Positions 9,380 to 30,499 are shown, counted from the stretch's first letter. The stretch: DNA of 64,000 nucleotides from an uncultured Acidobacteriota bacterium (GCA_963836075.1 CAWIIB010000009.1:128001-192000), one strand, 5' to 3'. Numbers and translations are program-made. The notes: generated by a model from the letters alone, not told the origin.

Positions 9380-9411
9380 TATACGGAATCGATGTGCAGA
9401 TTGCGTGCAGG
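9380..9411 (-). promoter_or_regulatory. Candidate response-regulator box TGCAC-N6-TGCAC with adjacent -10-like element (copy 1)
   Basis: 29 of 32 nt identical to 10845-10876; GTGCA at 9394 and 9405 (11-bp period). Confidence 0.7.
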
Positions 9412-9438
9412 TGATGAGGCGATTCAATGGAAAGGGTT

Positions 9439-10764: not shown

Positions 10765-10844
10765 GGTCGGCTCCCGCAAGAAACATTGCGGCCTGGCTAC
10801 CGGACAGGCCGATCGATCAGAAACACCATTCACCTGTCCATGGT

Positions 10845-10876
10845 TATACAGACTCGATGTGCAGATTTCGTGCAGG
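10845..10876 (-). promoter_or_regulatory. Candidate response-regulator box TGCAC-N6-TGCAC with adjacent -10-like element (copy 2)
   Basis: GTGCA at 10859 and 10870; lies between the repeat-protein gene and the divergent response regulator. Confidence 0.7.
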
Positions 10877-10946
10877 CGGGAAGGCGATTCCATGGATGTC
10901 GCTGCGGGGTGTGGCCCCGGCCGACAGCATGCGATATATTGAAAGC

Positions 10947-14883: not shown

Positions 14884-15299
14884 CGCACGTTCTACTCACT
14901 GGATACTCTTCCCCTGCCGCAACAAGCATGACGAGAGTAATCCCGTTTCAAAATTTTGGCGGAGGCTGGATTTGTTCACATTCAGGATGGGCAAGCTGCG
15001 AATTTTTTGCAATCCGCTTGATTCTGCGCATCCCTTACACTGCTATTCTGAAATTTTATATCAATGAACGGCGGATACTGTCGGGCTTTGAGTGACAACC
15101 GTCAAACAATTCGGCTGTTTCGAAAGATAACTATTGCTGTTTGTTTGCGGTACGTCAGGAGAATGCCTATTATCCCTCGGCTCGACTGGGGCGAGGCGGG
15201 ACGTGAGCTTCTCCCTGCGGGATAATATTTTTTTCGAGTATGTGCAAATCATGGTAATCTGATCAGCGTAGGTTATCAGTAAATGGAATTTGAACGGCC

Positions 15300-16628
15300 A
15301 TGGTGCATACTCGATACCAGCAGAATTCATCGAGACCGGATAAGAGCAGTAAGGGATCCAGGTTCCGGAAAGCCTTGCTGCCGCTGGTCATTCTTCTTGC
15401 GACCCTTTCCATTGTCGATACGGCCTGGTGCGTCTACATTGATTCAAGGCTCGGTTTCACCTGGCAGAGGCTCGAGGGGGAAGGCACAAAGGTCGATTTC
15501 GAGATATTCTTCCCGCGGAGCCATACCCTTGCTGGATACGGGGATGACCTGTGGAGCTTCACAGTGCTCCAGCTGGAGGAGCCTGCCACACTGGAGATCA
15601 GCAGTGACGCGGTGGAGAACCGCATCTTGAAATTGCATGGTCTGTTCGACCGGGCGAGGTTCTTCAACGTTCAGGTGGTGGAATCCGAAGAAGACCCATT
15701 CTCCTACACCATTGACGAATCCCGGAAATATCCATTTCCCCAGGCCTATCCCGACGACGTTCTGGAATTTCTCAGGCCGGGCAGGAACATCGAGTCGGAC
15801 CGCCTGGAGATACGGACCCTGGCCCAGGAGCTGGCCGGTGAATTCGCTGATCCCGAATCCGGCTGCATGTACCGGGCGGTGAAGGCGATCATCAACTCGG
15901 GATACTTCCATTACATGCCCTATGACTACGAGAACCTTGAGGAGGTGACCAACGGCTGTGTCACCACTTCCTTTGCCGATGGACGGGTGCGATCCGCCTT
16001 TGAAGTGTACCAGGATTACATCGGTGTCTGTTCATCCAAAGCCAGGCTGGGGGCTGCGCTCTGCCGGTCGATCGGCATCCCCGCGCGGACGGTGAGCAAG
16101 ACCGGTCTGCACGCCTGGACCGAAATGTGGATCAACGGCCTGGGCTGGGTGCCGGCGGAATATACCGGTGCCGAGCGGTTCCCCAAGCCGATCACCGGCA
16201 ACAATCACACCACCTCGAGACTTTCCACCCGTGATGACTCCATCTGGTTCACCTGGGATCCGCCCTGTCTCTCGGAGTTCAACATGCTGAGTTCTGACGA
16301 GTACAACTTCGAGTTCGCCGTGGCCAGCACCATCATCGCCCATCCCGCCGGCGAGATCCTCCATGACAGCCCTGAATGTCGCAGAGCGTTCATTCCCGTG
16401 GCGCTGAGAATCGGTATCTATTGTGTTGCGGACGAAAAGGGGCTCACTCTCTACACGCTGAACGTGCTCACCGGTGAACTGCTGGACACGGATATCCTCC
16501 CCGGGCAGGCAGGGGTGGCGCTGATCTCCATCTCCCCGGATTCCACGAAGAGCATCCAGTATCGCAAGGTCGGTGAATACGTCATCCTGAATATACTCTC
16601 CAGCCCTCGGGTCCCAGCCTCGGAATGA
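15300..16628 (+). CDS. Exported transglutaminase-like domain protein
   Basis: Hydrophobic signal/TM segment; GVCSSKARLGAALCRSIGIPARTV and HAWTEMWINGLGWVPAE. Confidence 0.8.
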   Translation: MVHTRYQQNSSRPDKSSKGSRFRKALLPLVILLATLSIVDTAWCVYIDSRLGFTWQRLEGEGTKVDFEIFFPRSHTLAGYGDDLWSFTVLQLEEPATLEISSDAVENRILKLHGLFDRARFFNVQVVESEEDPFSYTIDESRKYPFPQAYPDDVLEFLRPGRNIESDRLEIRTLAQELAGEFADPESGCMYRAVKAIINSGYFHYMPYDYENLEEVTNGCVTTSFADGRVRSAFEVYQDYIGVCSSKARLGAALCRSIGIPARTVSKTGLHAWTEMWINGLGWVPAEYTGAERFPKPITGNNHTTSRLSTRDDSIWFTWDPPCLSEFNMLSSDEYNFEFAVASTIIAHPAGEILHDSPECRRAFIPVALRIGIYCVADEKGLTLYTLNVLTGELLDTDILPGQAGVALISISPDSTKSIQYRKVGEYVILNILSSPRVPASE

Positions 16629-16770: not shown

Positions 16771-16799
16771 TTGACGACGGAAAGGGAAACCCATATATT
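16771..16799 (+). promoter_or_regulatory. Sigma70-type promoter TTGACG-N17-TATATT for the 16.8-26 kb operon
   Basis: Near-consensus hexamers at 16771-16776 and 16794-16799, about 35 nt before the GTG at 16834. Confidence 0.65.
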
Positions 16800-16833
16800 C
16801 AATTGCAGTCTTGACTGATGATCTCGAAGGGGG

Positions 16834-18069
16834 GTGTTTCCGTTCCGCTCAATCCTCTCCGTTGGACTGATTCTGGCGTTTTCCGCCGGAGGGACAATTG
16901 CGGCAGGAGCTCAAACATTCGCCTTCCGCGGGGAAGCGTCCATCGCAGGAATACTCAGCGACGCTGAAGAGGCCGACCGTCAGGCTACGGCCCGCTACCT
17001 TCCCGAGTTGTCCCTTAATATCCACCTTGCCAAATCCGTGACTCTGGATTTTTCTGCTGCAGCCAACCTGTGGGCCTATCAAGCCTCGGTCTCCGACGGG
17101 GAGAACCTGTCCGAAAGCGGCGCCGATCCCTATCGCGCCTGGGTGCGGCTTTCCGACCCCCGCTTCGAGGTTCGCGCCGGGCTGCAAAAGATCTCCTTCG
17201 GATCGGCAAGTATTTTCCGCGCCCTGATGTGGTTCGACCGTATCGACCCTCGTGACCCGCTGCAACTCACAGAGGGGGTCTGGGGCCTGCTGTGCCGGGC
17301 CTACCTGCCGGGCAATGCCAACGCTTGGGGATGGGTCCTGAGAGGAGAGGACGAGCGGAAGGGGTGGGAGTTCATCCCGACCGAGGACGGGACCGTCGAA
17401 GGGGGGGGAAGACTTCAGGTGCCGCTCGGGCCGGGGGAAGCGGCGGTCACCTATCACCGGCGACGGTTCGATCTCGCCTCCCTCGGTGGCGTTCCCGCCG
17501 GTGTCTACTCCGGGTCGGGACCGGAAGACCGCTTCGCCGTCGACGGAAAGTGGGATCTCGAACTGGGTGTCTGGGTGGAAGGGGCGTTCATCCGGCAGGA
17601 GTCGGAGGCCCTGGAGCGCACCTGGAGCCGCGCGCTGAGTCTCGGCGCGGATTACACCTTCGAGATCGGCAATGGCCTGACGGTTCTTTCCGAATACTTC
17701 TACAAGGATAACCCGTCCCTTGCGGTGATCCCTCCCGCCGGGGGCGCCGGGAGTATCGAGCCGGAGCGCTCGCGCAGTGCTCCCGCGGAGCCGTTCCCGC
17801 CCCAGGTCCAGCTCGCGTCGTTCACGGCCAGCTACCCCTTCGGTGTCCTCGATCGGGTGGCCCTGGCCGCCTACCGGGACCTGGACAGTTCCGACTGGTA
17901 CAGCCTCCTGGAGTGGCGGCGCAGTTACGATCGCTGGCGGTTCCACTTCCTGGCGTTCTGGAATCCCGAGCAAAGCTCCCTGTTCCCTCCCTCTTCCGCG
18001 GGGAACGCCGCCAGTTCCGGGTCGCTGTCGGGCCGGGGCGTACAACTTATCGTGGTGTTCAACCATTGA
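16834..18069 (+). CDS. Exported protein, probable outer-membrane beta-barrel
   Basis: Signal peptide; YRAWVRL..RFEVRAGLQKISFG; amphipathic strands; C-terminus LIVVFNH. Confidence 0.7.
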   Translation: MFPFRSILSVGLILAFSAGGTIAAGAQTFAFRGEASIAGILSDAEEADRQATARYLPELSLNIHLAKSVTLDFSAAANLWAYQASVSDGENLSESGADPYRAWVRLSDPRFEVRAGLQKISFGSASIFRALMWFDRIDPRDPLQLTEGVWGLLCRAYLPGNANAWGWVLRGEDERKGWEFIPTEDGTVEGGGRLQVPLGPGEAAVTYHRRRFDLASLGGVPAGVYSGSGPEDRFAVDGKWDLELGVWVEGAFIRQESEALERTWSRALSLGADYTFEIGNGLTVLSEYFYKDNPSLAVIPPAGGAGSIEPERSRSAPAEPFPPQVQLASFTASYPFGVLDRVALAAYRDLDSSDWYSLLEWRRSYDRWRFHFLAFWNPEQSSLFPPSSAGNAASSGSLSGRGVQLIVVFNH

Positions 18070-18086
18070 CCGGTGAGCGCAAGCAG

Positions 18087-18815
18087 ATGGAAAACGGCAT
18101 TCTGATCCAGACCGACGGGCTGTCCAAGCGCTACCCCATGGGCGCCGGCGAAATCATCGCTCTCGAGGATATCAGCCTCACCTTCGGTGAAGGGGAGTTC
18201 AGCGGCATCGTCGGCCCCAGCGGCTCGGGAAAGACAACCCTGCTCAACATCATCGGGACACTGGACAGCCCGACCAGGGGCACGGCCCGGGTATTGGGAC
18301 AACACGTCGAGCGTCTGACGCACCGGGCGGCCGCCGAACTCCGCAGCCGCCACATCGGTTTCATCTTCCAGACCTTTTGCCTCCTCCAGTTCTACACGGT
18401 TTTCGAAAATGTCGAGTTTCCGCTCCTCCTGCTGGGCATGACCGCGCGAGACCGCCGACGGGCGGTGATGGAGGCGCTGGAACGGGTGGGCCTGGCCGAT
18501 CGGGCGGCCTCCAGGCCCAACCAGCTCTCGGGCGGGCAGAGCCAGCGAGTCGCCATCTCCCGGGCCATCGTCAAGAAGCCCCGGCTGGTCCTGGCCGACG
18601 AGCCGACGGCCAATCTGGACGCGGAAAATTCGCACAATATCCTCCAGACCATGGAGCGGCTGAATAGAGACCTGGGCACGACCTTCCTCTTCGCCACGCA
18701 TGACGAGAAGGTCATCCGCTACCTGCGCCGGACCATCACCCTCGAGGACGGCCGGGTGGCCGGCGACCTCGCGGCACATGCGGGGCGGAGCGAACAGGAG
18801 GATACCGGTCCATGA
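18087..18815 (+). CDS. ABC transporter ATP-binding protein (LolD/MacB-like)
   Basis: GPSGSGKT, LSGGQSQRV, LADEPTANLD, ATHD. Confidence 0.95.
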   Translation: MENGILIQTDGLSKRYPMGAGEIIALEDISLTFGEGEFSGIVGPSGSGKTTLLNIIGTLDSPTRGTARVLGQHVERLTHRAAAELRSRHIGFIFQTFCLLQFYTVFENVEFPLLLLGMTARDRRRAVMEALERVGLADRAASRPNQLSGGQSQRVAISRAIVKKPRLVLADEPTANLDAENSHNILQTMERLNRDLGTTFLFATHDEKVIRYLRRTITLEDGRVAGDLAAHAGRSEQEDTGP

Positions 18816-20023
18816 CCCTGCTGAAACTTGCGATACGCAACCTGATCGGCGCGGGGCTTCGCACGGTCCTCAACATTCTCGTCCTGACCCTGGTCTTCCT
18901 GGCCATCGTGGCTTCGCTGGGCCTGCTCGAGGGGATGAACGAGCAGACCTCCCGGGCGATGGTGGAGGCCGAGTACGGCGGGGGCCAGTTCTGGCATCCC
19001 GGATACGATCCCTATGATCCGCTGACCCTGGAGGACGCCCGCGGGATCCCGCCCCCGGAACTGCTCGATCTCATGGCCCGGGGCGAGGCGGCCGCCATCC
19101 TGGTTGTCCAGGGCACCATGTATCCCGGGGGGCGCCTGCGCCCGGTCCTCCTCAAGGGTATCGATCCCGGACAGGGCATTCTCGAGCTCCCCACCGCAGC
19201 CCTGGGCGCCTCACCGGACGAGCCTGACGGCATACCGGTTCTGCTGGGGTCGCGGATGGCCGAGAATACCGGCCTGGCCCCGGGGGACGTCGTCACCCTT
19301 CAGTGGCGGGACGTGAACGGGACCATCGACGCCCGGGAGGCCCGGGTGGTCCAGATCATGAACACGCCCGTTCAAAGCGTGGACCTGAACCAGGTCTGGC
19401 TGCCCCTGGGCCGGCTGCAGGAGATGATGGGCGCGCCCCGGGAAGCGACCCTGGCCGTGGCGCGCAGGGGCCTGCCGGGCCCTGCCGCGGGTCTGCAGGC
19501 TCCGGCCGCTTCCCTTGCCGGGGCGGACTGGGTGTTTCAGCGGCCCGATGACCTTCTCGCCGACATCCGGAATCTGGTGCGGGCCAAGAAGATCGGGGCC
19601 GGCATCATCTATGCCCTGCTGATCTTCCTGGCGATGATCGCCATCTTCGACACGCAGGTCCTGTCGCTGTTCCACCGCAGGAAGGAGATCGGGACGCTGA
19701 TGGCCCTGGGGATGACCCGGGGAAGGATCATGGCCCTCTTCGTCCTCGAGGGCGGCCTCCACGGGGTCCTGGCCATCGGCGCCGGTGCTGTATTCGGCAC
19801 CCCGCTCCTCTGGCGCTTCAGCCGGGTCGGCTGGAAACTGAGCACCCAGGCGGACAGTTACGGCTACGCCCTGGGAGACACCCTCTACCCGGTGTTCACC
19901 CCCGGAATTCTCATCCAGACCGGGCTGCTGCTCCTCCTGATCACGGCGCTGGTCAGCTGGATCCCGACCCGCAGCATATTGTCACTGACGCCCACCGAAG
20001 CGCTTCGGGGGAGGGCGGCATGA
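18812..20023 (+). CDS. ABC transporter permease (LolC/E, FtsX-like)
   Basis: LAIRNL N-terminus, RRKEIGTLMALGM, C-terminal PTEALRG. Confidence 0.9.
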   Translation: MTLLKLAIRNLIGAGLRTVLNILVLTLVFLAIVASLGLLEGMNEQTSRAMVEAEYGGGQFWHPGYDPYDPLTLEDARGIPPPELLDLMARGEAAAILVVQGTMYPGGRLRPVLLKGIDPGQGILELPTAALGASPDEPDGIPVLLGSRMAENTGLAPGDVVTLQWRDVNGTIDAREARVVQIMNTPVQSVDLNQVWLPLGRLQEMMGAPREATLAVARRGLPGPAAGLQAPAASLAGADWVFQRPDDLLADIRNLVRAKKIGAGIIYALLIFLAMIAIFDTQVLSLFHRRKEIGTLMALGMTRGRIMALFVLEGGLHGVLAIGAGAVFGTPLLWRFSRVGWKLSTQADSYGYALGDTLYPVFTPGILIQTGLLLLLITALVSWIPTRSILSLTPTEALRGRAA

Positions 20024-21294
20024 TCCTCTTCCTGCTCAAGGGGCTCCTCAGAGACAGATCCCGCAGCTTCTTCCCGGTAATCACGGTTCTGGCGGGAGTG
20101 GCTCTCACGGTGGTGGCCTACAGCTGGATCCGAGGCACGGAAGCGGACATCATCCGGGCCAACGCCAGCTTCAGCACCGGCCATCTCAGGCTGACGACCC
20201 GCGGCTACCTCAACGAACCGGCCCAGACGGCCAATGAACTGGCCCTGGGGGATCTGGCCGGGTCCCTGGCCCTGCTCGAGGAAACCTGCCCCGGGCTGGA
20301 CTGGGTTCCCCGGATACGTTTTTCCGGTCTCTTCGACCTGCCGGACGCCCGGGGCGAAACCCGGGCCCAGGCTCCGGTGGCGGGGCTCGCTCTCGATCTG
20401 CTCAACCCGCACGGCGCCGAGCGAGAGATCCTCAACCTGGAGCGGGCCCTCACGTCCGGCCGGCTGCCGGCCGCCCCAAGCGAGATTCTGATCAGCGAAA
20501 CCCTCGCCGAACGATTGGGCCTTCGGCTCGGCGAAAGCGGGACATTCATCGGAACCACCCGCTTCGGGGGCCTGACCACCGCCAACTTCGAGGTGGTGGG
20601 GACCATCCGTTTCGGCATCACGGCCATGGATCGCGGAGCGATCCTCGGTGACATCAGCGGACTGGGGCCGGCCCTGGACATGGAGAACGCCGCCGGGGAA
20701 ATCCTGGGATTCTTCCCCGACCGCATCTACCGGCCGCATATCAGCGCCGAGATGACCGATGCGTTCAACCGGCGTTTCGAAGACCCCGGCGACGAGTTCT
20801 CGCTCCGCCTCACCCACCTGCGGAGCGATCCCGGGCTCGCCACACTGCTGGACCTGGCCGGAATCGTGACCGGAGCGCTGATCGCCCTTTTCGTGGCCGT
20901 GATGTCAATCGTGCTCTGGAACGCCGGGCTGATGGGGTCTCTCCGGCGCTACGGGGAGTTCGGTGTGCGCCTGGCCGTGGGCGAGAAGCACGGCCACATC
21001 TACGGTTCACTGCTGGTGGAGGCCCTGACTATCGGCGTTTTAGGCTCGCTGCTGGGGACGGCCCTGGGGCTGGGCCTCTCCCACTACCTCCAGGTCCGCG
21101 GCCTGAGCATCGCCCCGTTTCTGAAGAACGCCTCCCTGCTCATTTCCGACGTCCTCCGCGCCCGGGTGACGCTGGGGAGCTTCTTCATCGGCTTCGTGCC
21201 GGGTTTGCTGGCCACCCTCGTGGGTACGGCGGTCTCTGGTATTGGGATTTACCGGCGGCGGACCTCGCAGCTGGCCAAGGAGTTTGAAGGATGA
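20020..21294 (+). CDS. ABC transporter permease (LolC/E, FtsX-like)
   Basis: RRYGEFGVRLAVGE, four-TM layout with a large periplasmic loop. Confidence 0.9.
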   Translation: MILFLLKGLLRDRSRSFFPVITVLAGVALTVVAYSWIRGTEADIIRANASFSTGHLRLTTRGYLNEPAQTANELALGDLAGSLALLEETCPGLDWVPRIRFSGLFDLPDARGETRAQAPVAGLALDLLNPHGAEREILNLERALTSGRLPAAPSEILISETLAERLGLRLGESGTFIGTTRFGGLTTANFEVVGTIRFGITAMDRGAILGDISGLGPALDMENAAGEILGFFPDRIYRPHISAEMTDAFNRRFEDPGDEFSLRLTHLRSDPGLATLLDLAGIVTGALIALFVAVMSIVLWNAGLMGSLRRYGEFGVRLAVGEKHGHIYGSLLVEALTIGVLGSLLGTALGLGLSHYLQVRGLSIAPFLKNASLLISDVLRARVTLGSFFIGFVPGLLATLVGTAVSGIGIYRRRTSQLAKEFEG

Positions 21295-22076
21295 GGACGA
21301 TCAGCATTATCGGTTGCGCCCTGGCGCTCTTCTCCCTTGCCGCAACGGTACCGCTCGCGGGTTCCGGCGGTGCGGATGACGCGGCGGGCGCCGGGCCATT
21401 GACCGGGGAGCAGATTCTCGTGCGGGTCGACGAAAACCTGGCCTCGGAAACCAAGATCTCTCTTTCCCGCATGGTCATCCAGGGGCGGGCCGGCTCCCGG
21501 ACCGTGGAGTCGCGGTCCTGGATCAGAGGCACGGAGGAGTCCTTCACCGAGTATCTGGCCCCCCCCAGGGACCGGGGGACCAAGATGCTGAAACTGGGCG
21601 ACCAGCTCTGGACCTACTTCCCCGACACCGACCGTACCATCCTCATCGCCGGCCATATGCTGCGGCAATCCGTGATGGGATCGGACCTCTCCTATGAGGA
21701 CCTGATGGAAGACCCCCATCTCTTCGACATGTACTCGGCGGAGGTCCTCAGGACGGAGCCGTGTGACGGTCGACCGTGCTGGGTCCTGCGGCTTGAGGCG
21801 AAGGACACCTCGCCGGCCTACCACGCCCGGGAGATGTGGGTGGACCAGGAGCGCTTCGTGCCCCTCAGGGAGAGCCGGTTCGCCAAGAGCGGAAAGCTGC
21901 TGAAGACCACCGAGGTGCGGCGAGTGGAACGACAGGGTGACCGCTGGGTGGCGCGGGAAATGGTCTTCAAGGACGTGCTGAAATCGGGGGAGGGAACCGT
22001 TTTTATCATCGAATCGATCGAGTTTGATGCCGAAATCCCGGGCTACTTCTTTACCAAGGCAGCCCTGCGGCGCTGA
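21291..22076 (+). CDS. LolA-like outer membrane lipoprotein-sorting protein
   Basis: Signal peptide; EYLAPPRDRGTKMLK..QLWTYFP; VMGSDLSYEDL. Confidence 0.88.
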   Translation: MRTISIIGCALALFSLAATVPLAGSGGADDAAGAGPLTGEQILVRVDENLASETKISLSRMVIQGRAGSRTVESRSWIRGTEESFTEYLAPPRDRGTKMLKLGDQLWTYFPDTDRTILIAGHMLRQSVMGSDLSYEDLMEDPHLFDMYSAEVLRTEPCDGRPCWVLRLEAKDTSPAYHAREMWVDQERFVPLRESRFAKSGKLLKTTEVRRVERQGDRWVAREMVFKDVLKSGEGTVFIIESIEFDAEIPGYFFTKAALRR

Positions 22077-22095
22077 GCGGAGAAAAGGGCGAGGA

Positions 22096-24546
22096 ATGAA
22101 GCGGAAGATCATCTGGCTGGACAGCCGCAAGGCCCTGGATCGCACGCTGACCGGGGGAAAGGCAGCGAACCTGGCGCGGCTCGTGTCTCTCGGCTTCCCC
22201 GTGCCCAAGGGGTTCGTGATCCCGCCGGAAATTGAGCTGAAGGGCAGCCGGTCCCCGGGAACTCTCCTGGGCTCGGGGCGGCGTCGGCTCGATGGTCCGC
22301 TGGCCGTGCGATCCTCTCTGGTGGGGGAGGATGGAACGAATCATTCCTTTGCCGGACAACTGGAAACAGTCCTCGGCGTCGAGGGAGAGAAGCCGCTGCT
22401 CACCGCCGTCGCTCAGGTGCGATCCTCCGTGTTTCATCCCCGGATCCGGCGATATGCCGAACAGCATGACCTGCTGGAGCTCCGGTCCTCTTCCCGCCCC
22501 TCCCGGTCGCCCGGCGGGGTGGCGGATATATTCAGGATGGCCGTCCTGGTCCAGGAAATGGTCCCGGCATTGGCCGCCGGCGTGGCGTTCAGCGCCGACC
22601 CCCTGACGGGCCGGCGCACCGTGATCATCGAGGCGGTGCCACGTCATGGCGACGCTTTACTCCAGGGCCGGATCGAGCCCGACCGGTTCATCATCGACCC
22701 CCGGGGGGAGCTGGCCCTGGAGGAAAGAAAGACCCTGAGCCGCCAGGATCTCCCATCCGGAATCATCAAGGCCCTCGGGGACACGGTTCTGCAGGTCGCG
22801 GCCCGTTTCGGCACGCCTCAGGATGTCGAGTGGGCCTGGGACGGGAAACGGATGTACCTCCTGCAAGCCCGTCCGATCACCTCTCTGGCGGGGCAGAGCG
22901 TCTATTCGAAAAAGCTGCTGGGGGACATGATTCCCGGACCTATCAAGCCCCTGGTCTGGTCCACGAATGTTCTCGGCATGGTGGAAGGTGTCTTCGGGGA
23001 CGTGTTCACCCGGCTCATCGGAAAGAACGACCACGACTTCAGGCGCATCCTGCGAAGAATCCGGTCCCGGGCTTACGTGGACACGACCTTCGTCGGCCGG
23101 CTCCTGGCCGAGGTCGGGTTGCCCGGGAATCTCTTCGAAGCCGTCGGCAGGGAGGAGAAGGTGCCGGTGCGGGTCGGGCTGAACAGGACGCTTCTCGCCC
23201 GGGCGCCGAGGTTCTTCATCTTCTGCCTGCGCCATGCCCGGCTGGAGAAAAAACTGTCTTCCGGTCTCCGGGAACACGATCGGGCCCTCGACGCTTTCCG
23301 CAAGGCCGAGCTGGCATCGATGCCCGCATCCCGGCTGTTCGACCGCGCGGACGAACTGCTCATGCTCCACCGCAAGCTCCAGGGCTCCATCATGTTCGCC
23401 AGCATGAGCCTCGGCATTCGCACCCGCCTGTTGAAGCGTTACGTGGCCCGGCACGCCGCGGAAGTCGATCCGTCCCACCTCCTGCTCGGCCGGCGGGGTT
23501 TGAAATCCACCGCGCCGAATCGCGAACTGAGCGCCCTGGCGGCGGAAGCGGCCAGCCTGGATCAGGAGCAGGTATCCCTCTTCCTGACCGGAGACACCGA
23601 GGCCATAGGTCAGGGCCTCACCGGGTGCGCGGCGGGAACAGCGATCATCGCCGGGGTGGAACGGTTCCTCGGGCGCTATGGATTCCTCAGCGCCAACGGC
23701 ACCAATTTCGGCGAGCCCAGCTGGGAGGAGGAGCCCGGACCGGTGTGGAAAGCCCTGGGGCGGATGATCCGCAGCGGGCAGCCCAATCAGATCGACAACA
23801 CCGCTGTCCGCGAGGGGGCGAGGAAGGCCGTCCTGGACCGGCTGGGGCCATTCCGGCGGATCCATTTTGCCAGACGCCTGGCATCCGTTGCCCGTTACCT
23901 GGAGCTTCGGGAAGGGATCAGCTCGCTGATGACGGAGGACACCTACGAACTCCGGCGGCTCTTCCTCGGGATCGGCCGCCGACTGGTGGAGCAGGGCCGA
24001 ACGGATGACGCGGAAGACGTGTTTCTCCTTCACGCCGAGGAACTTCGCCGGGCGCTGGGCGGGGACGGTGACACGGGGGAACTGAGGGCGCTGATCGAGG
24101 AGCGCCGGGCTGAACTCGACCGGGACCGGGACGCGGAACTGCCCGAGACGATCGTGGGAGAAGGAATCCCGGAAGCGGCCACCGTGACCGAATCCGGCCC
24201 GCTGTTGACGGGGATGGGCGTCAGCACCGGCGTGGTGCGGGGGACGGCCCGCGTGGTCAGGGAACTGGACGACGCTCCGGCCAGCCTGACCAGGGGTGAC
24301 ATCCTGATCGTTCCCTTTTCCGATGTCGGGTGGACGCCGCTCTTCGCCACGGTGGGTGGCATCGTCGCGGAATGCGGCGGGCAGCTCTCCCACACGGCCA
24401 TCGTGGCCCGGGAGTACGGCCTGCCGGCGGTGGTGGGCGTGCGGGGGGTGATGAGGGAAATCAGGGACGGACAGGTGATAACCGTGGACGGGGGAAAGGG
24501 GCATATCCATCTTGCGCAGGCGGCTCCGCCAGGCGAATCAGCCTGA
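22096..24546 (+). CDS. PEP-synthase/rifampicin-phosphotransferase-like dikinase (ATP-grasp, substrate and His-swivel domains)
   Basis: GGKAANL, AVRSS..GED...SFAGQ, QDVEWA, LLQARPIT; C-terminal GWTPLF...GGQLSHTAIVAREYG; no PEP TIM barrel. Confidence 0.88.
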   Translation: MKRKIIWLDSRKALDRTLTGGKAANLARLVSLGFPVPKGFVIPPEIELKGSRSPGTLLGSGRRRLDGPLAVRSSLVGEDGTNHSFAGQLETVLGVEGEKPLLTAVAQVRSSVFHPRIRRYAEQHDLLELRSSSRPSRSPGGVADIFRMAVLVQEMVPALAAGVAFSADPLTGRRTVIIEAVPRHGDALLQGRIEPDRFIIDPRGELALEERKTLSRQDLPSGIIKALGDTVLQVAARFGTPQDVEWAWDGKRMYLLQARPITSLAGQSVYSKKLLGDMIPGPIKPLVWSTNVLGMVEGVFGDVFTRLIGKNDHDFRRILRRIRSRAYVDTTFVGRLLAEVGLPGNLFEAVGREEKVPVRVGLNRTLLARAPRFFIFCLRHARLEKKLSSGLREHDRALDAFRKAELASMPASRLFDRADELLMLHRKLQGSIMFASMSLGIRTRLLKRYVARHAAEVDPSHLLLGRRGLKSTAPNRELSALAAEAASLDQEQVSLFLTGDTEAIGQGLTGCAAGTAIIAGVERFLGRYGFLSANGTNFGEPSWEEEPGPVWKALGRMIRSGQPNQIDNTAVREGARKAVLDRLGPFRRIHFARRLASVARYLELREGISSLMTEDTYELRRLFLGIGRRLVEQGRTDDAEDVFLLHAEELRRALGGDGDTGELRALIEERRAELDRDRDAELPETIVGEGIPEAATVTESGPLLTGMGVSTGVVRGTARVVRELDDAPASLTRGDILIVPFSDVGWTPLFATVGGIVAECGGQLSHTAIVAREYGLPAVVGVRGVMREIRDGQVITVDGGKGHIHLAQAAPPGESA

Positions 24547-24625
24547 GGACGCGTTGCGGGACATTCGGCGCCACAGCCCCGGGCAGGACGAACCGGCAGC
24601 CGAGAACGTCTTTCTGGAGGCAGGG

Positions 24626-25339
24626 ATGAACATCCAACTCGCGGGATTGAGCCTGCTCACCGGCTACCTGGTCGGCAGCATTTCCATGGCCCGGATCGTC
24701 AGCGCCCTGGCCGCGCCCGGGAAAAAAGTGCCCACGGTCACCGAACTGAGGCTCGAGGGGAGCGACCGGGTCTTTCACCTCGGAACGGTCAGCGCTTCCT
24801 CGGTGTCGGTGCAGCACGGCTCGAAATACGGTTTCCTGGTCTTCCTCCTGGACATGATCAAGGTCATCATTCCGGTGGCGCTGTTCAGGCACTTCTTCCC
24901 GGGCTCATCCTATTTCCTGCTGGTGGCCACCGCGGCCGTGGCCGGGCACATCTGGCCGGTCTATCACCGATTCCGGGGAGGGCGGGGCCTCTCCGCCATC
25001 TACGGCACCCTCCTCGTCGTCGACTGGATCGGGATGTTCATCGCCGGCGCGGGGGGGATGGTCGTGGGGCTGTTCATCCTCCGCTCAGTCCTTCTCGCCT
25101 ACGTGCTCGGGCCGTGGCTGGTGGTACCCTGGATCTGGTGGCGCACCGGTGACCCGGCCCACGTTGCTTTTGCGGTTGCGGCTGCCGTATTTTTTACCAT
25201 CTCCATGGTGCCTGAAATCAGGCAGTGGAGGAAGATTTCGAAAGAGGAACAGTGGGACGACTATCAGGCGGTGATGCAGCTCTCCGGGATGGGCAGGGGA
25301 ATTCTCAAGCTGGCGAAGAAGATCGGGGTGGTGAAGTAG
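24626..25339 (+). CDS. PlsY-family (G3P acyltransferase-like) membrane protein with divergent motifs
   Basis: GYLVGSI, LDMIKV, AVAGHIWPVYHRFRGGRGLS. Motif 1 (GSGNxGxTN) and motif 3 (HxxN) are not recognisable. Confidence 0.78.
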   Translation: MNIQLAGLSLLTGYLVGSISMARIVSALAAPGKKVPTVTELRLEGSDRVFHLGTVSASSVSVQHGSKYGFLVFLLDMIKVIIPVALFRHFFPGSSYFLLVATAAVAGHIWPVYHRFRGGRGLSAIYGTLLVVDWIGMFIAGAGGMVVGLFILRSVLLAYVLGPWLVVPWIWWRTGDPAHVAFAVAAAVFFTISMVPEIRQWRKISKEEQWDDYQAVMQLSGMGRGILKLAKKIGVVK

Positions 25340-26031
25340 CCCCGGGCGCCGCTCCCATCGTCGTGCTGGGTGGTTTGCTCAGCACCCCCTCCCTCTACCG
25401 GGAGATGGGGGACACCCTCCGGCGACTTGCCGGGGCGCCGGTGCTGGTGGTCCCGGTTTCCCGCCTGGAATGGGCGGCGACCGTTTCCGGATGGGGGTGG
25501 GAGCGGATCCTGCTGAAACTGCGGGAGACCGTCGACCGGGCGTTCCGGCTCGGCGAGGACCGGCGGGTCACGCTGGTGGGGCACAGCGCGGGCGGGGTCA
25601 TCGGCAGGCTGTATCTCAGCCCCGAGCCGTTCAGGGGTCACCGCTTCCGGGGACTGGATCAGGTACGCCACCTCATCACCCTGGGCAGCCCCCATCTGAA
25701 CGTTCGGGGCGCCCGCCTGCGCAGTTGGGTGGACCGGACCTTGCCCGGCGCCTATTTCGCTCCGCGGGTCGCCTATTCCACGGTGGCCGGCCGGGCCGTT
25801 CGGGGCGATCGGCGAGGCCCTGTGAAGGCACGGCTGGCCTATCTGCTGTACCGTCAGCTTTGCGGCGAGGGGTCCCAATGGGGAGACGGGGTTGTTCCCC
25901 TCGCTTCGGCACGTCTGGAGGGTGCCGCCAACCTCACTCTGGATGCCGTGGCCCATGCACCCATCGGGGGGAAGCTCTGGTACGGGACGCCCGAGATGGT
26001 AAGGGAGTGGTGGGAACAGTCAAGGCCGTGA
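25225..26031 (+). CDS. Alpha/beta hydrolase (lipase/esterase, PGAP1-like); true start probably near 25330-25365
   Basis: LVGHSAGG nucleophile elbow, LITLGSPH, GDGVVP, VAH. Confidence 0.82.
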   Translation: MEEDFERGTVGRLSGGDAALRDGQGNSQAGEEDRGGEVAPGAAPIVVLGGLLSTPSLYREMGDTLRRLAGAPVLVVPVSRLEWAATVSGWGWERILLKLRETVDRAFRLGEDRRVTLVGHSAGGVIGRLYLSPEPFRGHRFRGLDQVRHLITLGSPHLNVRGARLRSWVDRTLPGAYFAPRVAYSTVAGRAVRGDRRGPVKARLAYLLYRQLCGEGSQWGDGVVPLASARLEGAANLTLDAVAHAPIGGKLWYGTPEMVREWWEQSRP

Positions 26032-26252
26032 AGGGAGGGAGGCGGCTCCTCCCGAAACGGTGGTGCGTCTGTTTTTCGCGCTACTGTTCGTGCCGCCATG
26101 AAGGGATGGGATATGATCTGCCGTGGCCGGAGCCTGAAGCACGGCCGCGCACCGGACCAAGGTCCCGGGGGAGGGACGGTGGTCTTTATCCCCGGACCGT
26201 CCTGACCGGGAGTCAAGCCGGTGCTGATCAGGGCGGCGGAGAGGGAGCGAGC

Positions 26253-27344
26253 ATGGAGGAGCATCTCTTCATTACCGGGGGCACCGGCTTTATCGGGAGC
26301 CGCCTCCTCAGGCTGTGGCTCGAACGGACCAACGCGCTGATCACGCTGCTCATCCGGCCACGCGCCGGTTCCAGCGCCAAAAGTCAACGACGGCGCGCGC
26401 TGGCCGCCCTTCCCAAAGAATGGCGCAATACCTGCTCCGGGCGAATCAGGCTGGTCCGGGGCGATCTCGCGCTTCCGCAACTGGGCATTCAACCCGACGA
26501 CTGGGCGGCGCTTGCCAGGAGCGTCACCCACATCGTCCACGCCGGGGCTGTGCTGCGTTTCAACCTGGCACTCGACCAGGCACGGCGGATCAACACGAAC
26601 GGGACAGCGGCGGTCCTCGACCTGGCCCGATGCTGCCGCCGCCTCGTCCGGTTCGATTACCTCAGCACAGCCTACGTCGCCAGCCGCTGTCAGGGGGTGG
26701 TGCTGGAGGACACATGCCGGGTTTTCGAGGAGCACAACAACAGCTACGAGCGCAGCAAGTATGAGGCCGAGCTTCTGATCAGGGGGGCGATGGCGGAAGT
26801 GCCCGCGGCCATCCTGCGGCCAACGGTCGTGACCTGCGATTTGCAGAGCGGCTATGCGCCGGCCACCAGCGCCTTCTTCCGCTTGCTGCATGCCGTGGCG
26901 AGCGGCATTCTCACCGTACTGCCCGGGCGGCCGGGGACCCTGCTCGACCTGGTGCCCTTGGACTATATTGCCGAAGCGGCTTTTGCCATCGGCCGGCAAT
27001 CCGATACCGCGGGCCGCTGCTTCCACCTCAGCGCCGGCCGGGAGAACCTCATCAGCCTTGGTGATCTGCGCGATCTGGCCTGTGCCGGCTTCGGACGCGA
27101 AACGGTGGAGATCCTGTCCCCGGATCTATTCGCGCACTGGGCGGCAGACCGCTGCAAGGTGATGCCCGAGACGAGCGCCCACCTGGAGGAGATCAGCCTC
27201 TACCTGCCATATCTCAGTCACCATCCTCACTTTGACAATGCGAATGCCATGCGTGCGCTGGACGGGACCGCTGTGCACATGGTGGCCGTCCCGGACTATT
27301 TCGATCGTGTCGCAGCCTACGTCGGCCGCCTGCTTCGGAAGTGA
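26253..27344 (+). CDS. Extended SDR, fatty-acyl/thioester-reductase (male-sterility/NAD_binding_4) type
   Basis: ITGGTGFIG, RGDLALPQLG, HAGA..RF, INTNGT, LSTAYV, NSYERSKYEAE. Confidence 0.85.
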   Translation: MEEHLFITGGTGFIGSRLLRLWLERTNALITLLIRPRAGSSAKSQRRRALAALPKEWRNTCSGRIRLVRGDLALPQLGIQPDDWAALARSVTHIVHAGAVLRFNLALDQARRINTNGTAAVLDLARCCRRLVRFDYLSTAYVASRCQGVVLEDTCRVFEEHNNSYERSKYEAELLIRGAMAEVPAAILRPTVVTCDLQSGYAPATSAFFRLLHAVASGILTVLPGRPGTLLDLVPLDYIAEAAFAIGRQSDTAGRCFHLSAGRENLISLGDLRDLACAGFGRETVEILSPDLFAHWAADRCKVMPETSAHLEEISLYLPYLSHHPHFDNANAMRALDGTAVHMVAVPDYFDRVAAYVGRLLRK

Positions 27345-27472: not shown

Positions 27473-27502
27473 GAAAAGCCACCCGTTTGCGGGTGGCTTT
27501 TC
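27473..27502. terminator. Bidirectional intrinsic terminator between convergent genes
   Basis: GAAAAGCCACCCG-TTTG-CGGGTGGCTTTTC: perfect 13-bp stem with A and T tracts. Confidence 0.85.
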
Positions 27503-30312: not shown

Positions 30313-30362
30313 ATGCCTGCTCCATTCACCATCACGAGGCCCTCCTTATTGAAGACAGCATG

Positions 30363-30392
30363 ATTGTATTATATTTGTCTATGTTTTGTCAA
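30363..30392 (-). promoter_or_regulatory. Sigma70 promoter overlapped by three 11-bp direct repeats (CarH/LitR-type operator)
   Basis: Minus strand TTGACA-aaaca-TAGACA-aatat-AATACA; promoter TTGACA-N18-TACAAT. Confidence 0.7.
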
Positions 30393-30499
30393 GATAAATA
30401 TATACAATTCTCGCAAAGGGATGAAATCAATGGGGATGGCGGATTACCGGACGACCTACCGTAAGGAGGGGTAACAGATGGGACCCGATTCCGTAAATC

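What the first reader, a model, noticed from the sequence alone, without database searches (positions are those of the whole stretch)
16771..27344. Candidate undescribed lipid pathway: RPH-like dikinase, motif-divergent PlsY, lipase and acyl reductase with a dedicated Lol-like exporter and OM barrel
Seen: one promoter and tightly coupled genes. The dikinase has ATP-grasp/substrate/His-swivel order, which is the rifampicin-phosphotransferase architecture rather than PEP synthase. The PlsY-like protein keeps a GGRG phosphate-binding motif but lacks GSGNxGxTN and HxxN. Known: PlsY uses acyl-phosphate, and RPH-type enzymes phosphorylate hydrophobic hydroxyl substrates. Inference: the dikinase activates a fatty acid or reductase-derived fatty alcohol to acyl- or alkyl-phosphate. 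The PlsY-like enzyme then transfers it to a non-canonical acceptor, possibly making an unusual ester or ether lipid that the LolCDE/LolA/barrel set moves.
Basis: partly seen in the sequence, partly recalled or inferred. Interest (0 to 1): 0.7.

Follow-up and report, generated by a model that had tools for sequence, protein, structure and literature searches.

The report
Dikinase–PlsY-paralog lipid module with exporter
A rare gene module found in many sediment bacteria always pairs a rifampicin-phosphotransferase-like dikinase with a divergent copy of the lipid enzyme PlsY, next to a Lol-like export system, which points to an undescribed route for making and exporting an envelope lipid.

Summary
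Window 16834-27344 (+) encodes a predicted 18-strand outer-membrane barrel, a LolD-like ATPase, two MacB/FtsX permeases, a LolA_like protein, an RPH/PigC-architecture dikinase, a divergent PlsY paralog, a Ser-Asp-His esterase and a thioester-reductase-type SDR.

- **PlsY paralog.** It keeps the residues that bind acyl-phosphate in solved PlsY (His92, the GGK/RG loop, Thr41 as Ser). It lacks most of the glycerol-3-phosphate clamp (Arg45, Ser142, His177/Asn180).
- **Separate clade.** It splits from canonical PlsY with 100/100 support. Canonical PlsY is also present in the window's genome and in 5 of 5 other carrier genomes checked.
- **Linkage.** In 38 of 41 loci, from about nine phylum labels and at least four gene orders, a dikinase homolog lies within 1.5 kb. 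The other three are cut by contig ends.
- **Accessory genes.** The ABC system usually follows. LolA-like, barrel and esterase occur in the diderm-type loci. The reductase is there in only 2 of 41.
- **Rarity.** The module was found in 4 of 121 genomes of one class and in 0 of 40 relatives.
- **Literature.** Five literature searches found no description.

Best reading (inferred, untested): the dikinase makes acyl-phosphate, the paralog acylates a non-G3P acceptor, and the product is exported. The ether-lipid branch is not supported.

The parts
16771..16799 (+). Promoter-like site (TTGACG, 17-nt spacer, TATATT) 35 nt upstream of the first gene
   Evidence: 10 of 12 positions match. The scan found 5 sites in the region against 1.5 +/- 1.6 in shuffles. 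Consensus match only.
16834..18069 (+). Predicted outer-membrane beta-barrel (411 aa) with an N-terminal signal-like segment
   Evidence: No Pfam or NCBIfam hit. AlphaFold2 model has about 18 strands, pLDDT 76.6, pTM 0.73. Foldseek gives general porins and AlgE, E about 1e-9, TM 0.5-0.56. Single copy in the genome. A homolog is present in 16 of 41 related loci.
18087..18815 (+). ABC ATPase, LolD/MacB/DevA-like
   Evidence: PF00005, 120.8 bits. TIGR02211 LolD scores 226 bits against a cut-off of 307.75. Homolog in 25 of 41 loci.
18812..20023 (+). Type VII (MacB/LolC-type) ABC permease 1
   Evidence: MacB_PCD plus FtsX. TIGR02212 lolCE scores 46.9 bits against a cut-off of 362. Its start overlaps the upstream stop by 4 nt.
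20020..21294 (+). Type VII ABC permease 2
   Evidence: MacB_PCD plus FtsX. 4-nt overlaps on both sides.
21291..22076 (+). Periplasmic LolA_like carrier protein with an N-terminal signal-like segment
   Evidence: PF17131, 190.9 bits. It is the only match over the cut-off in the genome. Homolog in 20 of 41 loci, and in none of the 16 loci L048-L063, whose records are labelled Chloroflexota, Acidimicrobiia or Hodarchaeota.
22096..24546 (+). RPH/PigC-architecture dikinase: ATP-grasp, helical central domain, C-terminal His swivel domain
   Evidence: PPDK_N at 67-267 and PEP-utilizers at 732-802. All NCBIfam equivalogs fall far below their cut-offs. RPH is the best match in sequence and in fold. H766 in GGxLSH and the RSSxxxED motif are invariant in 23 of 23 sequences.
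24626..25339 (+). Divergent PlsY paralog (237 aa) with a conserved C-terminal extension
   Evidence: PF02660, 70.3 bits. TIGR00023 scores 72.1 bits against a cut-off of 137.2. Motif mapping onto 5xj5. Forms a clade apart from canonical PlsY, 100/100 support. Canonical PlsY lies elsewhere in the genome.
25225..26031 (+). Cytoplasmic Ser-Asp-His esterase/lipase-family protein. The start is uncertain: GTG 25225 or 25252, with homology from about 25336.
   Evidence: Weak PGAP1, Palm_thioest and DUF676 hits. The Atlas places it in esterase/lipase clusters. S84, D184 and H207 are invariant in 15 of 15. Start-codon scan. Homolog in 16 of 41 loci.
26253..27344 (+). Thioester-reductase/FAR-type SDR. 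It is locally attached and is not part of the conserved module.
   Evidence: PF07993, 170 bits. TIGR01746 scores 128.8 bits against a cut-off of 213. A 221-nt gap with a hairpin at 26037-26053 lies upstream. Homolog near only 2 of 41 loci. A contig of a near-identical metagenome population bridges esterase to reductase (record 8).
27478..27497 (.). GC-rich hairpin followed by TTTT, 134 nt after the last stop. Possible terminator.
   Evidence: Read in the sequence. The terminator scan did not list it.

Best explanation
This is a horizontally spread accessory module that makes one envelope lipid and moves it outward.

**Proposed mechanism (inferred)**
1. The soluble RPH/PigC-type dikinase uses ATP (giving AMP) and its swivelling phospho-histidine (H766) to phosphorylate a hydrophobic carboxylate. 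The most likely substrate is a free fatty acid released by the co-encoded Ser-Asp-His esterase. The product is acyl-phosphate.
2. The PlsY paralog binds that acyl-phosphate in its retained 'phosphate hole'. It transfers the acyl chain to an acceptor other than glycerol-3-phosphate, because most of the G3P clamp is gone.
3. A heterodimeric LolCDE-like type VII ABC transporter extracts the product from the inner membrane. It passes the product to the LolA_like carrier and on to an 18-strand outer-membrane barrel.
4. In the Chloroflexota- and Acidimicrobiia-labelled loci, only the ABC part is kept.

**Shown here**
- The genes and their domains.
- The site-by-site pattern of conservation in the PlsY paralog.
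- The linkage across phyla.
- The presence of a canonical PlsY beside the paralog.

**Inferred**
- The substrate of the dikinase.
- The hand-over to the paralog.
- The acceptor.
- The direction of transport.
For: **Linkage**
- 38 of 41 PlsY-like loci have a dikinase homolog within 1.5 kb, mostly under 100 nt away. The other three (L047, L051, L058) end at a contig edge on the expected side.
- The pair stays adjacent in at least four gene orders: the window's order, a convergent order, PlsY-like before dikinase in Chloroflexota-labelled loci, and an overlapping pair in Acidimicrobiia-labelled loci.
- Record labels cover about nine phyla.
- The window's genome has about 8 PPDK_N loci in 6.2 Mb, so chance adjacency to any one gene is well under 1% by my estimate. 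The loci are related by descent and are not independent.

**Donor and acceptor sites**
- In solved PlsY, His92, the backbone of K104-A107 and Thr41 hold acyl-phosphate. Ser35, Arg45, Lys104 and Asn180 clamp the G3P phosphate. Ser142 and His177 hold the 2-OH (PMC5700162, passages and section 10).
- In the paralog, H108 and G118-G119-R120-G121 are invariant in 18 of 18. In the window's protein Thr41 is Ser58, Asn37 is Thr55 and Arg45 is Val62. Ser142 is Tyr159, invariant in 18 of 18. No conserved His or Asn follows.

**A paralog with its own job**
- The clade splits from 9 canonical PlsY at 100/100 support, branch length 2.65.
- All 18 tested members match TIGR00023 only weakly, with a best E-value of 1e-20. 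The window's protein scores 72 bits against a cut-off of 137.
- Canonical PlsY co-exists in the window's genome and in 5 of 5 other carrier genomes.

**Phyletic pattern**
- Neither the paralog nor the dikinase central domain has an ortholog in 40 relatives, including 2 of the same genus. These tallies include one unpublished genome, G025.
- In one class sample of 121 genomes, the paralog is in G041, G266, G276 and G278. Strong central-domain hits are in G041, G266, G278 and G292, and the dikinase of G276 is cut by a contig end.

**Enzymes look active**
- The dikinase keeps its catalytic His and ATP-grasp motifs in 23 of 23 sequences.
- The esterase triad is invariant in 15 of 15.

**Export reading**
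- The LolA_like protein and the barrel are single-copy in the genome and sit in this module.
- A better lolCE match lies elsewhere in the genome (353 bits).

**Chemistry (established knowledge, recalled)**
- Dikinases of this superfamily transfer the beta-phosphate through a phospho-His.
- RPH phosphorylates a hydroxyl of a hydrophobic substrate, and PigC is held to activate a carbonyl oxygen.
- Acyl-phosphate is the only known donor of PlsY.
Against: - No assay was done. No dikinase is known to make acyl-phosphate. The known routes are PlsX and FakAB.
- Asn37, proposed in PlsY to stabilise the oxyanion, is Thr in the paralog. Lys104 is Arg, and K104R kept only 25% activity in PlsY. The chemistry may therefore differ.
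- Whether Ser35 is lost depends on the alignment: Leu53 by HMM, Ser46 by MAFFT with a 6-residue insert.
- The esterase is missing from 25 of 41 loci. This includes all 16 loci L048-L063, whose records are labelled Chloroflexota, Acidimicrobiia or Hodarchaeota. It cannot be the universal source of the fatty acid.
- One dikinase of the same type (35% identity over 805 residues, G292) has no PlsY-like gene nearby or in its genome at E <= 1e-25. A weaker one (G216) is similar.
- No fused form was found (weak evidence).
- No acceptor-making gene is conserved in the neighbourhood.
- Loci are related by descent, so the counts overstate independence.
Confidence: 0.4

Rival explanations
1. Scavenging rather than export. 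The barrel, the LolA_like protein and the ABC system bring in exogenous lipids or fatty acids. The esterase frees the fatty acid. The dikinase acts as an alternative fatty-acid kinase. The PlsY paralog feeds the acyl chain into the cell's own glycerolipids.
For: The same linkage data apply. The carriers are labelled as sediment and anaerobic-digester lineages, where lipid scavenging is plausible. An esterase fits a catabolic or salvage entry. FakAB-PlsY is a known salvage precedent (abstracts listed).
Against: Known type VII (MacB/LolCDE) ABC systems extract or export. None imports (recalled). The paralog lacks Arg45, Ser142 and His177/Asn180 of the G3P pocket. A canonical PlsY is already present. 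No FadL-type fold stood out for the barrel.
Confidence: 0.15
2. The first reader's second branch, the alkyl or enol-phosphate route. The reductase makes a fatty aldehyde or alcohol. The dikinase phosphorylates it. The PlsY paralog uses the alkyl or alkenyl phosphate to build an ether or vinyl-ether lipid.
For: The dikinase matches the NCBIfam models named for RPH, which acts on rifamycin, and for the ligases PigC and RedH, but far below their cut-offs. Its closest solved structure is RPH. A thioester-reductase-type SDR follows in the window, and at 18 nt in the Fibrobacteraceae-labelled locus L045 with 44% identity. The changed Asn37 position could fit different chemistry.
Against: A reductase homolog is near only 2 of 41 loci. 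In the window it lies behind a 221-nt gap with a hairpin. The residue that binds the acyl carbonyl in PlsY (Thr41) is conservatively kept as Ser. A monoalkyl phosphate is a poor alkyl donor (general chemistry).
Confidence: 0.1
3. A detoxification or resistance island. The dikinase inactivates a hydrophobic antibiotic or xenobiotic by phosphorylation, as RPH does. The esterase opens an ester or lactone. The MacB-type pump with its periplasmic carrier and barrel expels the compound. The PlsY paralog has a side role.
For: RPH is the closest solved structure. MacB-family pumps export antibiotics and peptides (recalled). The module is rare, patchy and apparently mobile. One dikinase of this type stands alone.
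Against: The integral-membrane PlsY paralog is the most tightly linked partner, 38 of 41 and in every locus not cut at a contig end, and it keeps a lipid-phosphate site. The dikinase scores 241 bits against the 999-bit cut-off of the RPH equivalog. No regulator or other resistance gene is conserved nearby.
Confidence: 0.1
4. A pathway for a lipidated protein. The Lol-like set sorts a specialised lipoprotein. The dikinase and PlsY paralog supply an unusual acyl modification for it.
For: The set has LolCDE-like architecture plus a LolA_like protein. Aminicenantes-labelled loci carry a small conserved Cys-rich membrane protein in the module.
Against: No candidate substrate protein is conserved across loci. 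The Chloroflexota- and Acidimicrobiia-labelled loci keep the enzymes without LolA_like or barrel. By homology with PlsY, the active site would face the cytoplasm, whereas lipoprotein maturation is periplasmic (recalled).
Confidence: 0.05

Closest known systems
PlsX/PlsY and FakAB/PlsY acyl-phosphate pathways of phospholipid synthesis (PlsY structure 5xj5; PMC5700162)
   Same: Same membrane-protein family (PF02660, 70 bits). It keeps the His and the GG(K/R)G loop of the acyl-phosphate 'phosphate hole', and Thr41 as Ser. A soluble partner gene is encoded next to it.
   Different: The G3P pocket residues Arg45, Ser142 and His177/Asn180 are not kept. It scores below the PlsY equivalog cut-off. It has a 6-8 residue insert before motif 1 and a conserved C-terminal extension (PEIxxW..W.D..QLSGMGRGxLKMAKKxG). 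The partner is a dikinase, not PlsX or FakA/B. Canonical PlsY co-exists.
Rifampin phosphotransferase RPH (Listeria RPH-Lm, 5hv1/5fbs)
   Same: The same three-domain order: ATP-grasp, helical substrate domain, C-terminal His swivel domain. It is the best sequence and fold match, and its chains are the top six fold matches. The catalytic His motif is kept.
   Different: About 21-22% identity in the structural alignment. It scores 241 bits against the 999-bit equivalog cut-off. Its central-domain motifs are conserved within its own subfamily (IYS, PGLIKPLVWS, PWRExP). Its fixed neighbour is a membrane acyltransferase paralog.
PigC/RedH prodiginine ligases
   Same: Same architecture. NCBIfam matches reach E about 1e-100 among subfamily members. 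They are held to activate a carbonyl oxygen of a hydrophobic substrate with ATP (recalled).
   Different: 239-261 bits against cut-offs of 1300-1350. No prodiginine genes lie nearby.
LolCDE-LolA lipoprotein sorting, with MacAB-TolC and DevBCA-type glycolipid export as other type VII ABC systems (the last two recalled)
   Same: One ATPase plus two permeases, each with MacB_PCD and FtsX domains, then a LolA-superfamily periplasmic protein. The ATPase also matches the DevA family (E 1e-57).
   Different: All scores are below the LolD and LolCE cut-offs. A better lolCE match lies elsewhere in the genome. The partner is a PF17131 protein plus a large barrel, rather than LolB or TolC. There is no membrane-fusion protein.
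Aryl-polyene lipid gene clusters, which carry LolA-like genes (titles and abstracts only, seen in the listing)
   Same: They are a precedent for a specialised-lipid gene cluster that brings its own LolA-like envelope transport genes.
   Different: Aryl-polyene clusters are FAS/PKS-like (abstracts). This module has only a dikinase, a PlsY paralog and an esterase as enzymes.

Membership tests
PlsY, glycerol-3-phosphate acyltransferase (PF02660 / TIGR00023) | Match to the family model over the domain gathering score | tested here: met
   PF02660 scores 70.3 bits against 24.1.
PlsY, glycerol-3-phosphate acyltransferase (PF02660 / TIGR00023) | Score over the equivalog cut-off (same function) | tested here: not met
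   TIGR00023 scores 72.1 bits against 137.2 for the window's protein. All 18 subfamily members match only at a best E-value of 1e-20.
PlsY, glycerol-3-phosphate acyltransferase (PF02660 / TIGR00023) | Acyl-phosphate 'phosphate hole': His92 and the GGKG loop, with Thr41 for the carbonyl | tested here: met
   H108 and G118-G119-R120-G121 are invariant in 18 of 18. Thr41 aligns to Ser58 in the window's protein. Lys is replaced by Arg.
PlsY, glycerol-3-phosphate acyltransferase (PF02660 / TIGR00023) | G3P pocket: motif 1 GSGNxGATN with Ser35 and Arg45, Ser142, and motif 3 His177-x-x-Asn180 | tested here: not met
   Arg45 is Val62 in the window's protein. Ser142 is Tyr159, invariant in 18 of 18. 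No conserved His or Asn lies in the C-terminal part. The Ser35 assignment depends on the alignment.
Rifamycin phosphotransferase RPH (NF041857 / NF000283) | ATP-grasp, central domain and C-terminal His domain, in that order, with the catalytic His | tested here: met
   Pfam coordinates. RPH chains are the top six fold matches. H766 is invariant.
Rifamycin phosphotransferase RPH (NF041857 / NF000283) | Score over the equivalog cut-off | tested here: not met
   241 bits against 999, and 158 against 1700.
Rifamycin phosphotransferase RPH (NF041857 / NF000283) | Rifamycin-binding pocket and activity | not testable with these tools
   Model coordinates are not returned, and no assay is possible.
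PEP synthase / PPDK (TIGR01418, TIGR01828) | C-terminal PEP/pyruvate-binding TIM-barrel domain after the His domain | tested here: not met
   Pfam finds only PPDK_N and PEP-utilizers. The His domain is C-terminal at 732-802 of 816 residues. TIGR01418 scores 184 bits against 740.
PigC/RedH ligases (NF052631, NF052632) | Score over the equivalog cut-off | tested here: not met
   239 bits against 1300, and 261 against 1350.
LolCDE lipoprotein-releasing ABC system (TIGR02211, TIGR02212) | ATPase plus two MacB_PCD/FtsX permeases | tested here: met
LolCDE lipoprotein-releasing ABC system (TIGR02211, TIGR02212) | Scores over the equivalog cut-offs | tested here: not met
   LolD scores 226 bits against 307.75. 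lolCE scores 46.9 against 362.45, and the second permease has no hit. The best lolCE match in the genome lies elsewhere, at 353 bits.
LolA_like (PF17131) | Match over the gathering score | tested here: met
   190.9 bits against 30.
Thioester reductase / fatty acyl reductase (PF07993, TIGR01746) | NAD_binding_4 domain, and the subfamily cut-off | tested here: inconclusive
   PF07993 scores 170 bits against 20.1, which is met. TIGR01746 scores 128.8 against 213.35, which is not met.
Alpha/beta-hydrolase esterase/lipase (PGAP1 / Palm_thioest-like) | Nucleophile elbow GxSxG with Asp and His | tested here: met
   GHS84AGG, D184 and H207 are invariant in 15 of 15. PGAP1 scores 24.4 bits against 24.3, which is borderline.

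The most novel reading that the evidence does not exclude
The dikinase is a new kind of fatty-acid-activating enzyme: fatty acid + ATP gives acyl-phosphate + AMP + Pi through a phospho-histidine. It is a third route to acyl-phosphate beside PlsX and FakAB. The PlsY paralog founds a second functional class of the PlsY fold, which acylates a non-G3P acceptor. Together they make a so far undescribed envelope lipid, which a Lol-like machine carries to the outer membrane in bacteria of many uncultured phyla.
Probability: 0.3. Interest if true: 0.8.

Novelty: new variant of a known kind. Interest (0 to 1): 0.62.

Why it matters
PlsY is regarded as a single-function enzyme with an invariable G3P pocket (PMC5700162, section 10). 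This clade keeps the donor site and discards most of the acceptor site. Its fixed partner is an RPH-type dikinase. Together they suggest three things:
- a second reaction for the PlsY fold;
- a new way to make its activated donor;
- a non-lipoprotein cargo for a Lol-like pathway.

The module is small, with two or three enzymes, so it can be tested directly by heterologous expression and lipidomics. The lineages that carry it are mostly uncultured sediment bacteria whose lipids are used as environmental markers (recalled). If the rival resistance reading is right instead, this would be a widespread environmental relative of an antibiotic-inactivating enzyme with a dedicated pump.

Tried and rejected
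- **Complex prediction.** Dikinase residues 268-816 with the PlsY paralog, both as alignments: no verdict, score 0.00. This counts neither for nor against binding.
- **Fusion search.** Among longer proteins nothing reached E <= 1e-10, which is weak evidence. The representative search found a 622-aa protein, P0153, that reads from the PlsY-like part straight into a barrel-like part. I read it as two adjacent genes merged by gene calling or a sequencing error, so it shows adjacency only. P0177 (381 aa) is similar.
- **Other conserved neighbours.** I clustered 500 ORFs of the 42 loci and ran Pfam on 20 flanking ORFs of related loci. No further shared enzyme appeared. Greedy ORF picking in GC-rich DNA also produced antisense artefacts (component 5), which I dropped.
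- **Window flanks.** The histidine kinase, flavin monooxygenase-like, transglutaminase-like, SDR and lipocalin genes are unrelated to the module.
- **Barrel fold search.** It gave only generic 16-18-strand barrels, so it yields no functional assignment.
- **Atlas search on the esterase.** It returned only generic esterase/lipase clusters.
- **Cluster look-up of eight PlsY-like relatives.** It gave no informative names.
- **Earlier findings of this scan.** None, in three look-ups.
- **Literature.** Five full-text searches found no paper linking PlsY paralogs with PEP-utiliser or RPH-type enzymes or with this transporter set. Supplements were not seen, and subscription journals are mostly outside the library.
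- **RNA evidence.** One metatranscriptome-library run (X20) holds two short contigs over 25091-25516. The tool warns that DNA can be present in such libraries, so transcription is not shown. Parts without cover mean nothing.
- **Two alignment calls failed on internal stop codons**. L034 carries one inside the dikinase match. At L061 the stop lay four residues from the end of the range that I had given. I left L034 out and shortened L061.

Full report
**What is there**

On the + strand of window 16834-27344 lie nine reading frames with high third-position G+C (0.76-0.84). Pfam and NCBIfam give the following.

| Coordinates | Assignment |
|---|---|
| 16834-18069 | 411-aa protein with no family hit |
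| 18087-18815 | ABC ATPase; LolD model 226 bits, cut-off 308 |
| 18812-20023 and 20020-21294 | Two permeases, each MacB_PCD plus FtsX |
| 21291-22076 | LolA_like protein, 190.9 bits |
| 22096-24546 | 816-aa protein with PPDK_N at 67-267 and the PEP-utilizers mobile domain at 732-802 |
| 24626-25339 | G3P_acyltransf (PlsY) domain protein, 70.3 bits |
| ORF 25225-26031 | Small alpha/beta hydrolase |
| 26253-27344 | NAD_binding_4 reductase, 170 bits |

Spacings are 17, -4, -4, -4, 19, 79 and -4 nt, and then 221 nt before the reductase. A promoter-like site sits at 16771-16799 (10 of 12 positions). The region holds 5 such sites against 1.5 +/- 1.6 in shuffles. A GC-rich hairpin with a T run lies at 27478-27497.
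- The reductase is not tightly coupled.
- The hydrolase has no canonical start codon where its homology begins.
- 'Lol-like' describes the architecture and does not imply orthology with LolCDE.

**The barrel**

An AlphaFold2 model built from 16 homologs has about 18 strands (pLDDT 76.6, pTM 0.73). Foldseek returns only general porins and AlgE (E about 1e-9, TM 0.5-0.56). It is an outer-membrane barrel of no assignable subtype. The barrel and the LolA_like protein are each single-copy in the 6.2-Mb genome. The best lolCE-like gene of the genome lies on another contig (353 bits).

**The dikinase**

- The best solved relatives by sequence are the Listeria rifampin phosphotransferase entries 5fbs and 5hv1-3 (E 4e-46).
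- A model from 23 homologs (pLDDT 84.6, pTM 0.80) finds the RPH chains as the top six matches (E 9e-38 to 4e-26), ahead of a few PPDK chains that also align end to end at E 1.5e-08 or worse. The remaining matches cover single domains.
- The His domain is C-terminal, and no PEP/pyruvate-binding domain is present. It is therefore not a PEP synthase or PPDK.
- It scores far below every NCBIfam equivalog. The window's protein gives RPH 241 against 999, PigC 239 against 1300, RedH 261 against 1350 and PEP synthase models 160-320 against 850-1063. All 23 homologs match these models at E-values of 1e-67 or weaker down to 1e-109.
- H766 in GGxLSH and the ATP-grasp RSSxxxED motif are invariant in 23 of 23. 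So are several central-domain motifs peculiar to this subfamily.

**The PlsY paralog**

The structure paper on Aquifex PlsY (PMC5700162; I read the passages found and all of section 10) assigns the residues as follows:
- His92, the backbone of K104-A107 and Thr41 bind acyl-phosphate.
- Asn37 stabilises the intermediate.
- Ser35, Arg45, Lys104 and Asn180 clamp the G3P phosphate.
- Ser142 and His177 hold the G3P 2-OH.

A profile of 18 subfamily members aligns to 5xj5 (E 7e-13).

| PlsY residue | Role in PlsY | In the paralog |
|---|---|---|
| His92 | Acyl-phosphate | H108, invariant |
| GGKG loop | Acyl-phosphate | GGRG, invariant |
| Thr41 | Acyl carbonyl | Ser58 |
| Asn37 | Intermediate | Thr55 |
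| Arg45 | G3P phosphate | Val62 |
| Ser142 | G3P 2-OH | Tyr159 |
| Ser35 | G3P phosphate | Leu53 by HMM, or Ser46 by MAFFT with a 6-residue insert |

No His or Asn is conserved in the C-terminal part. A subfamily-specific extension is conserved there instead.

Further points on the paralog:
- The window's genome also has a canonical PlsY (183 bits against 68 bits for the paralog).
- So do 5 of 5 other carrier genomes that I searched.
- In a maximum-likelihood tree, 26 paralogs and 9 canonical PlsY separate at 100/100 support on a branch of 2.65 changes per site. Several canonical rows have long branches.
- All 18 paralogs match the PlsY equivalog only weakly, with a best E-value of 1e-20. The window's protein scores 72 bits against a cut-off of 137.

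**How common and how linked**

- The word-indexed protein search found 266 relatives at E <= 1e-5. The 120 listed are all at 48-100% identity and almost all come from metagenomes.
- The exhaustive profile search of 1.84 billion representatives found 138 at E <= 1e-30, against 6461 at E <= 0.001. The family is small.
- A scan of one genome per species returned 42 loci. Their labels are Acidobacteriota (Aminicenantes, Sulfomarinibacteraceae, Thermoanaerobaculia), Calditrichia, Krumholzibacteriota, Zixiibacteriota, WOR-3, Fibrobacteraceae, Chloroflexota, Acidimicrobiia, one Hodarchaeota-labelled MAG, and some doubtful labels.
- I laid the nine window proteins on these loci with tblastn. Of the 42 loci, 41 hold a PlsY-like gene.

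| Window protein | Homolog present, of 41 loci |
|---|---|
| Dikinase (within 1.5 kb) | 38 |
| ABC ATPase | 25 |
| LolA_like | 20 |
| Permease 2 | 19 |
| Permease 1 | 17 |
| Barrel | 16 |
| Esterase | 16 |
| Reductase | 2 |

- The three loci without a dikinase (L047, L051, L058) end 3, 93 and 491 bases from the gene, on the side where the dikinase lies in their relatives.
- All these counts are lower bounds, because many contigs are short.
- The pair is adjacent in at least four arrangements. In the Chloroflexota-labelled loci the order is reversed, and a fused double permease follows the ATPase.
- LolA_like, barrel and esterase are absent from the 16 loci L048-L063, labelled Chloroflexota, Acidimicrobiia or Hodarchaeota.
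- The loci share descent and are not independent. Adjacency kept through rearrangements is nevertheless hard to explain without a functional tie.

**Phyletic pattern**

- Neither the paralog nor the dikinase central domain has an ortholog in 40 relatives, including two genomes of the same genus. Only canonical PlsY at about 30% identity and three weak dikinase hits appear. One of these 40 genomes (G025) is unpublished.
- In 150 genomes drawn from the phylum of the Aminicenantes-labelled carrier G041, only G041 itself has the paralog. This is an inference.
- In 121 genomes of the class of G041, the paralog is in 4. The dikinase central domain is in 4 strongly and 1 weakly. Three genomes overlap.
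- G276 has the last 76 residues of the dikinase at its contig start.
- G292 has a dikinase (35% identity over 805 residues) with unrelated neighbours and no paralog.
- So the paralog always comes with the dikinase, but the dikinase type is not always with the paralog.
- The module is rare, patchy and probably moves horizontally.

**Other genes**

- The esterase keeps GHS84xGG, D184 and H207 in 15 of 15 homologs and has no signal peptide. The Atlas places it in generic esterase/lipase clusters.
- No other enzyme is conserved next to the module.
- The window's flanks are unrelated.

**Near-identical DNA elsewhere**

Near-identical DNA occurs in salt-marsh, sediment and soil metagenome runs. Laid contigs of X1 cover most of the module in pieces. 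One bridges esterase to reductase, so the reductase attachment exists in close relatives of this population only.

**Mechanism**

The linkage is shown, the donor site is kept, most of the acceptor site is lost, and a canonical PlsY is already present. The most economical reading is a two-enzyme relay:
1. The dikinase makes a phosphorylated hydrophobic donor. Acyl-phosphate fits best, because the residues that hold the acyl carbonyl and the phosphate in PlsY are the ones retained.
2. The paralog passes the acyl group to an acceptor other than G3P.
3. The esterase may supply free fatty acid in the lineages that have it.
4. A type VII ABC transporter of LolCDE architecture, a LolA-superfamily carrier and a barrel then suggest outward transport to the outer membrane.

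Every chemical step is inferred. I give this 0.4. The rivals are lipid scavenging (0.15), alkyl or enol-phosphate chemistry (0.1), a drug-inactivation island (0.1) and a lipoprotein-specific pathway (0.05). The rest is left for something not thought of.

**Novelty**

Five full-text searches and three look-ups of this scan's earlier notes found no description of this pairing. Supplements and most subscription journals were not searchable. All parts belong to known superfamilies, so I rate it a new variant of a known kind, with a bolder reading kept open in the section on the most novel reading.

Noticed in passing
window 25225-25362: The esterase's homology to its relatives begins near 25336, but the in-frame codons there are not start codons. 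The only canonical in-frame starts are GTG 25225 and 25252, which overlap the PlsY-like gene by 115 or 88 nt, and GTG 25363, which would remove an invariant Pro. The protein may have an N-terminal extension, or translation may start at an unusual codon.
   Followed up: partly
L026:9309-9755 (-), also L034, L035, L037, L040, L041: A small Cys-rich membrane protein (about 150-190 aa) with several hydrophobic segments and CxxC-like motifs sits between the esterase and the LolA_like gene in six loci, four of them labelled Aminicenantes. The one copy tested (L026) has no Pfam hit. The window has no counterpart.
   Followed up: partly
protein P0153 (622 aa) and P0177 (381 aa): Two database proteins read from a PlsY-like part straight into a barrel-like part. 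P0153 ends like the window's barrel. This is probably two adjacent genes merged, which would be a fifth gene order.
   Followed up: partly
L063 (Hodarchaeota-labelled MAG contig), 5701-12523: The contig holds ABC, FtsX, dikinase and PlsY-like genes, plus a second PlsY-like copy on the opposite strand. The two copies are sisters in the tree. I did not check whether the contig is truly archaeal or misbinned.
   Followed up: no
L084 = G292:C3:3000-13820, dikinase at 6453-8972 (-): A dikinase of the same subfamily (35% identity) stands alone. Its neighbours are an O-methyltransferase, a VKOR-DsbA fusion, poly(A) polymerase and an oxidoreductase.
   Followed up: yes
L064:4631-5388 (Gemmatimonadetes-labelled): An esterase homolog (63% identity) is preceded only by a 23-residue match to the C-terminal end of the PlsY paralog. 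No full paralog was detected. This may be a remnant.
   Followed up: no
window 13348-16628: G+C drops to 0.544 in 14001-16000, against about 0.65 elsewhere. The stretch holds a flavin-monooxygenase-like gene (13348-14883, -) and a transglutaminase-like gene (15300-16628, +) just upstream of the module. It could mark an insertion boundary.
   Followed up: no
window 29587-31063 (-): An SDR (adh_short_C2) and a bacterial lipocalin (Lipocalin_2, 156.8 bits) lie downstream on the opposite strand. They have lipid-related names but are not conserved with the module.
   Followed up: no
G000, contigs C1 and C9: The genome holds about eight separate PPDK_N-containing loci, with open frames up to 1265 aa. 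None of them matches the central domain of the module's dikinase at E <= 0.001.
   Followed up: partly
window 22096-22400, alignment A3 columns 49-87: The window's dikinase lacks about 38 residues in the N-terminal ATP-grasp region that its closest (Acidobacteriota- and Calditrichia-type) relatives have. In this it resembles the shorter Chloroflexota- and Acidimicrobiia-type proteins.
   Followed up: no
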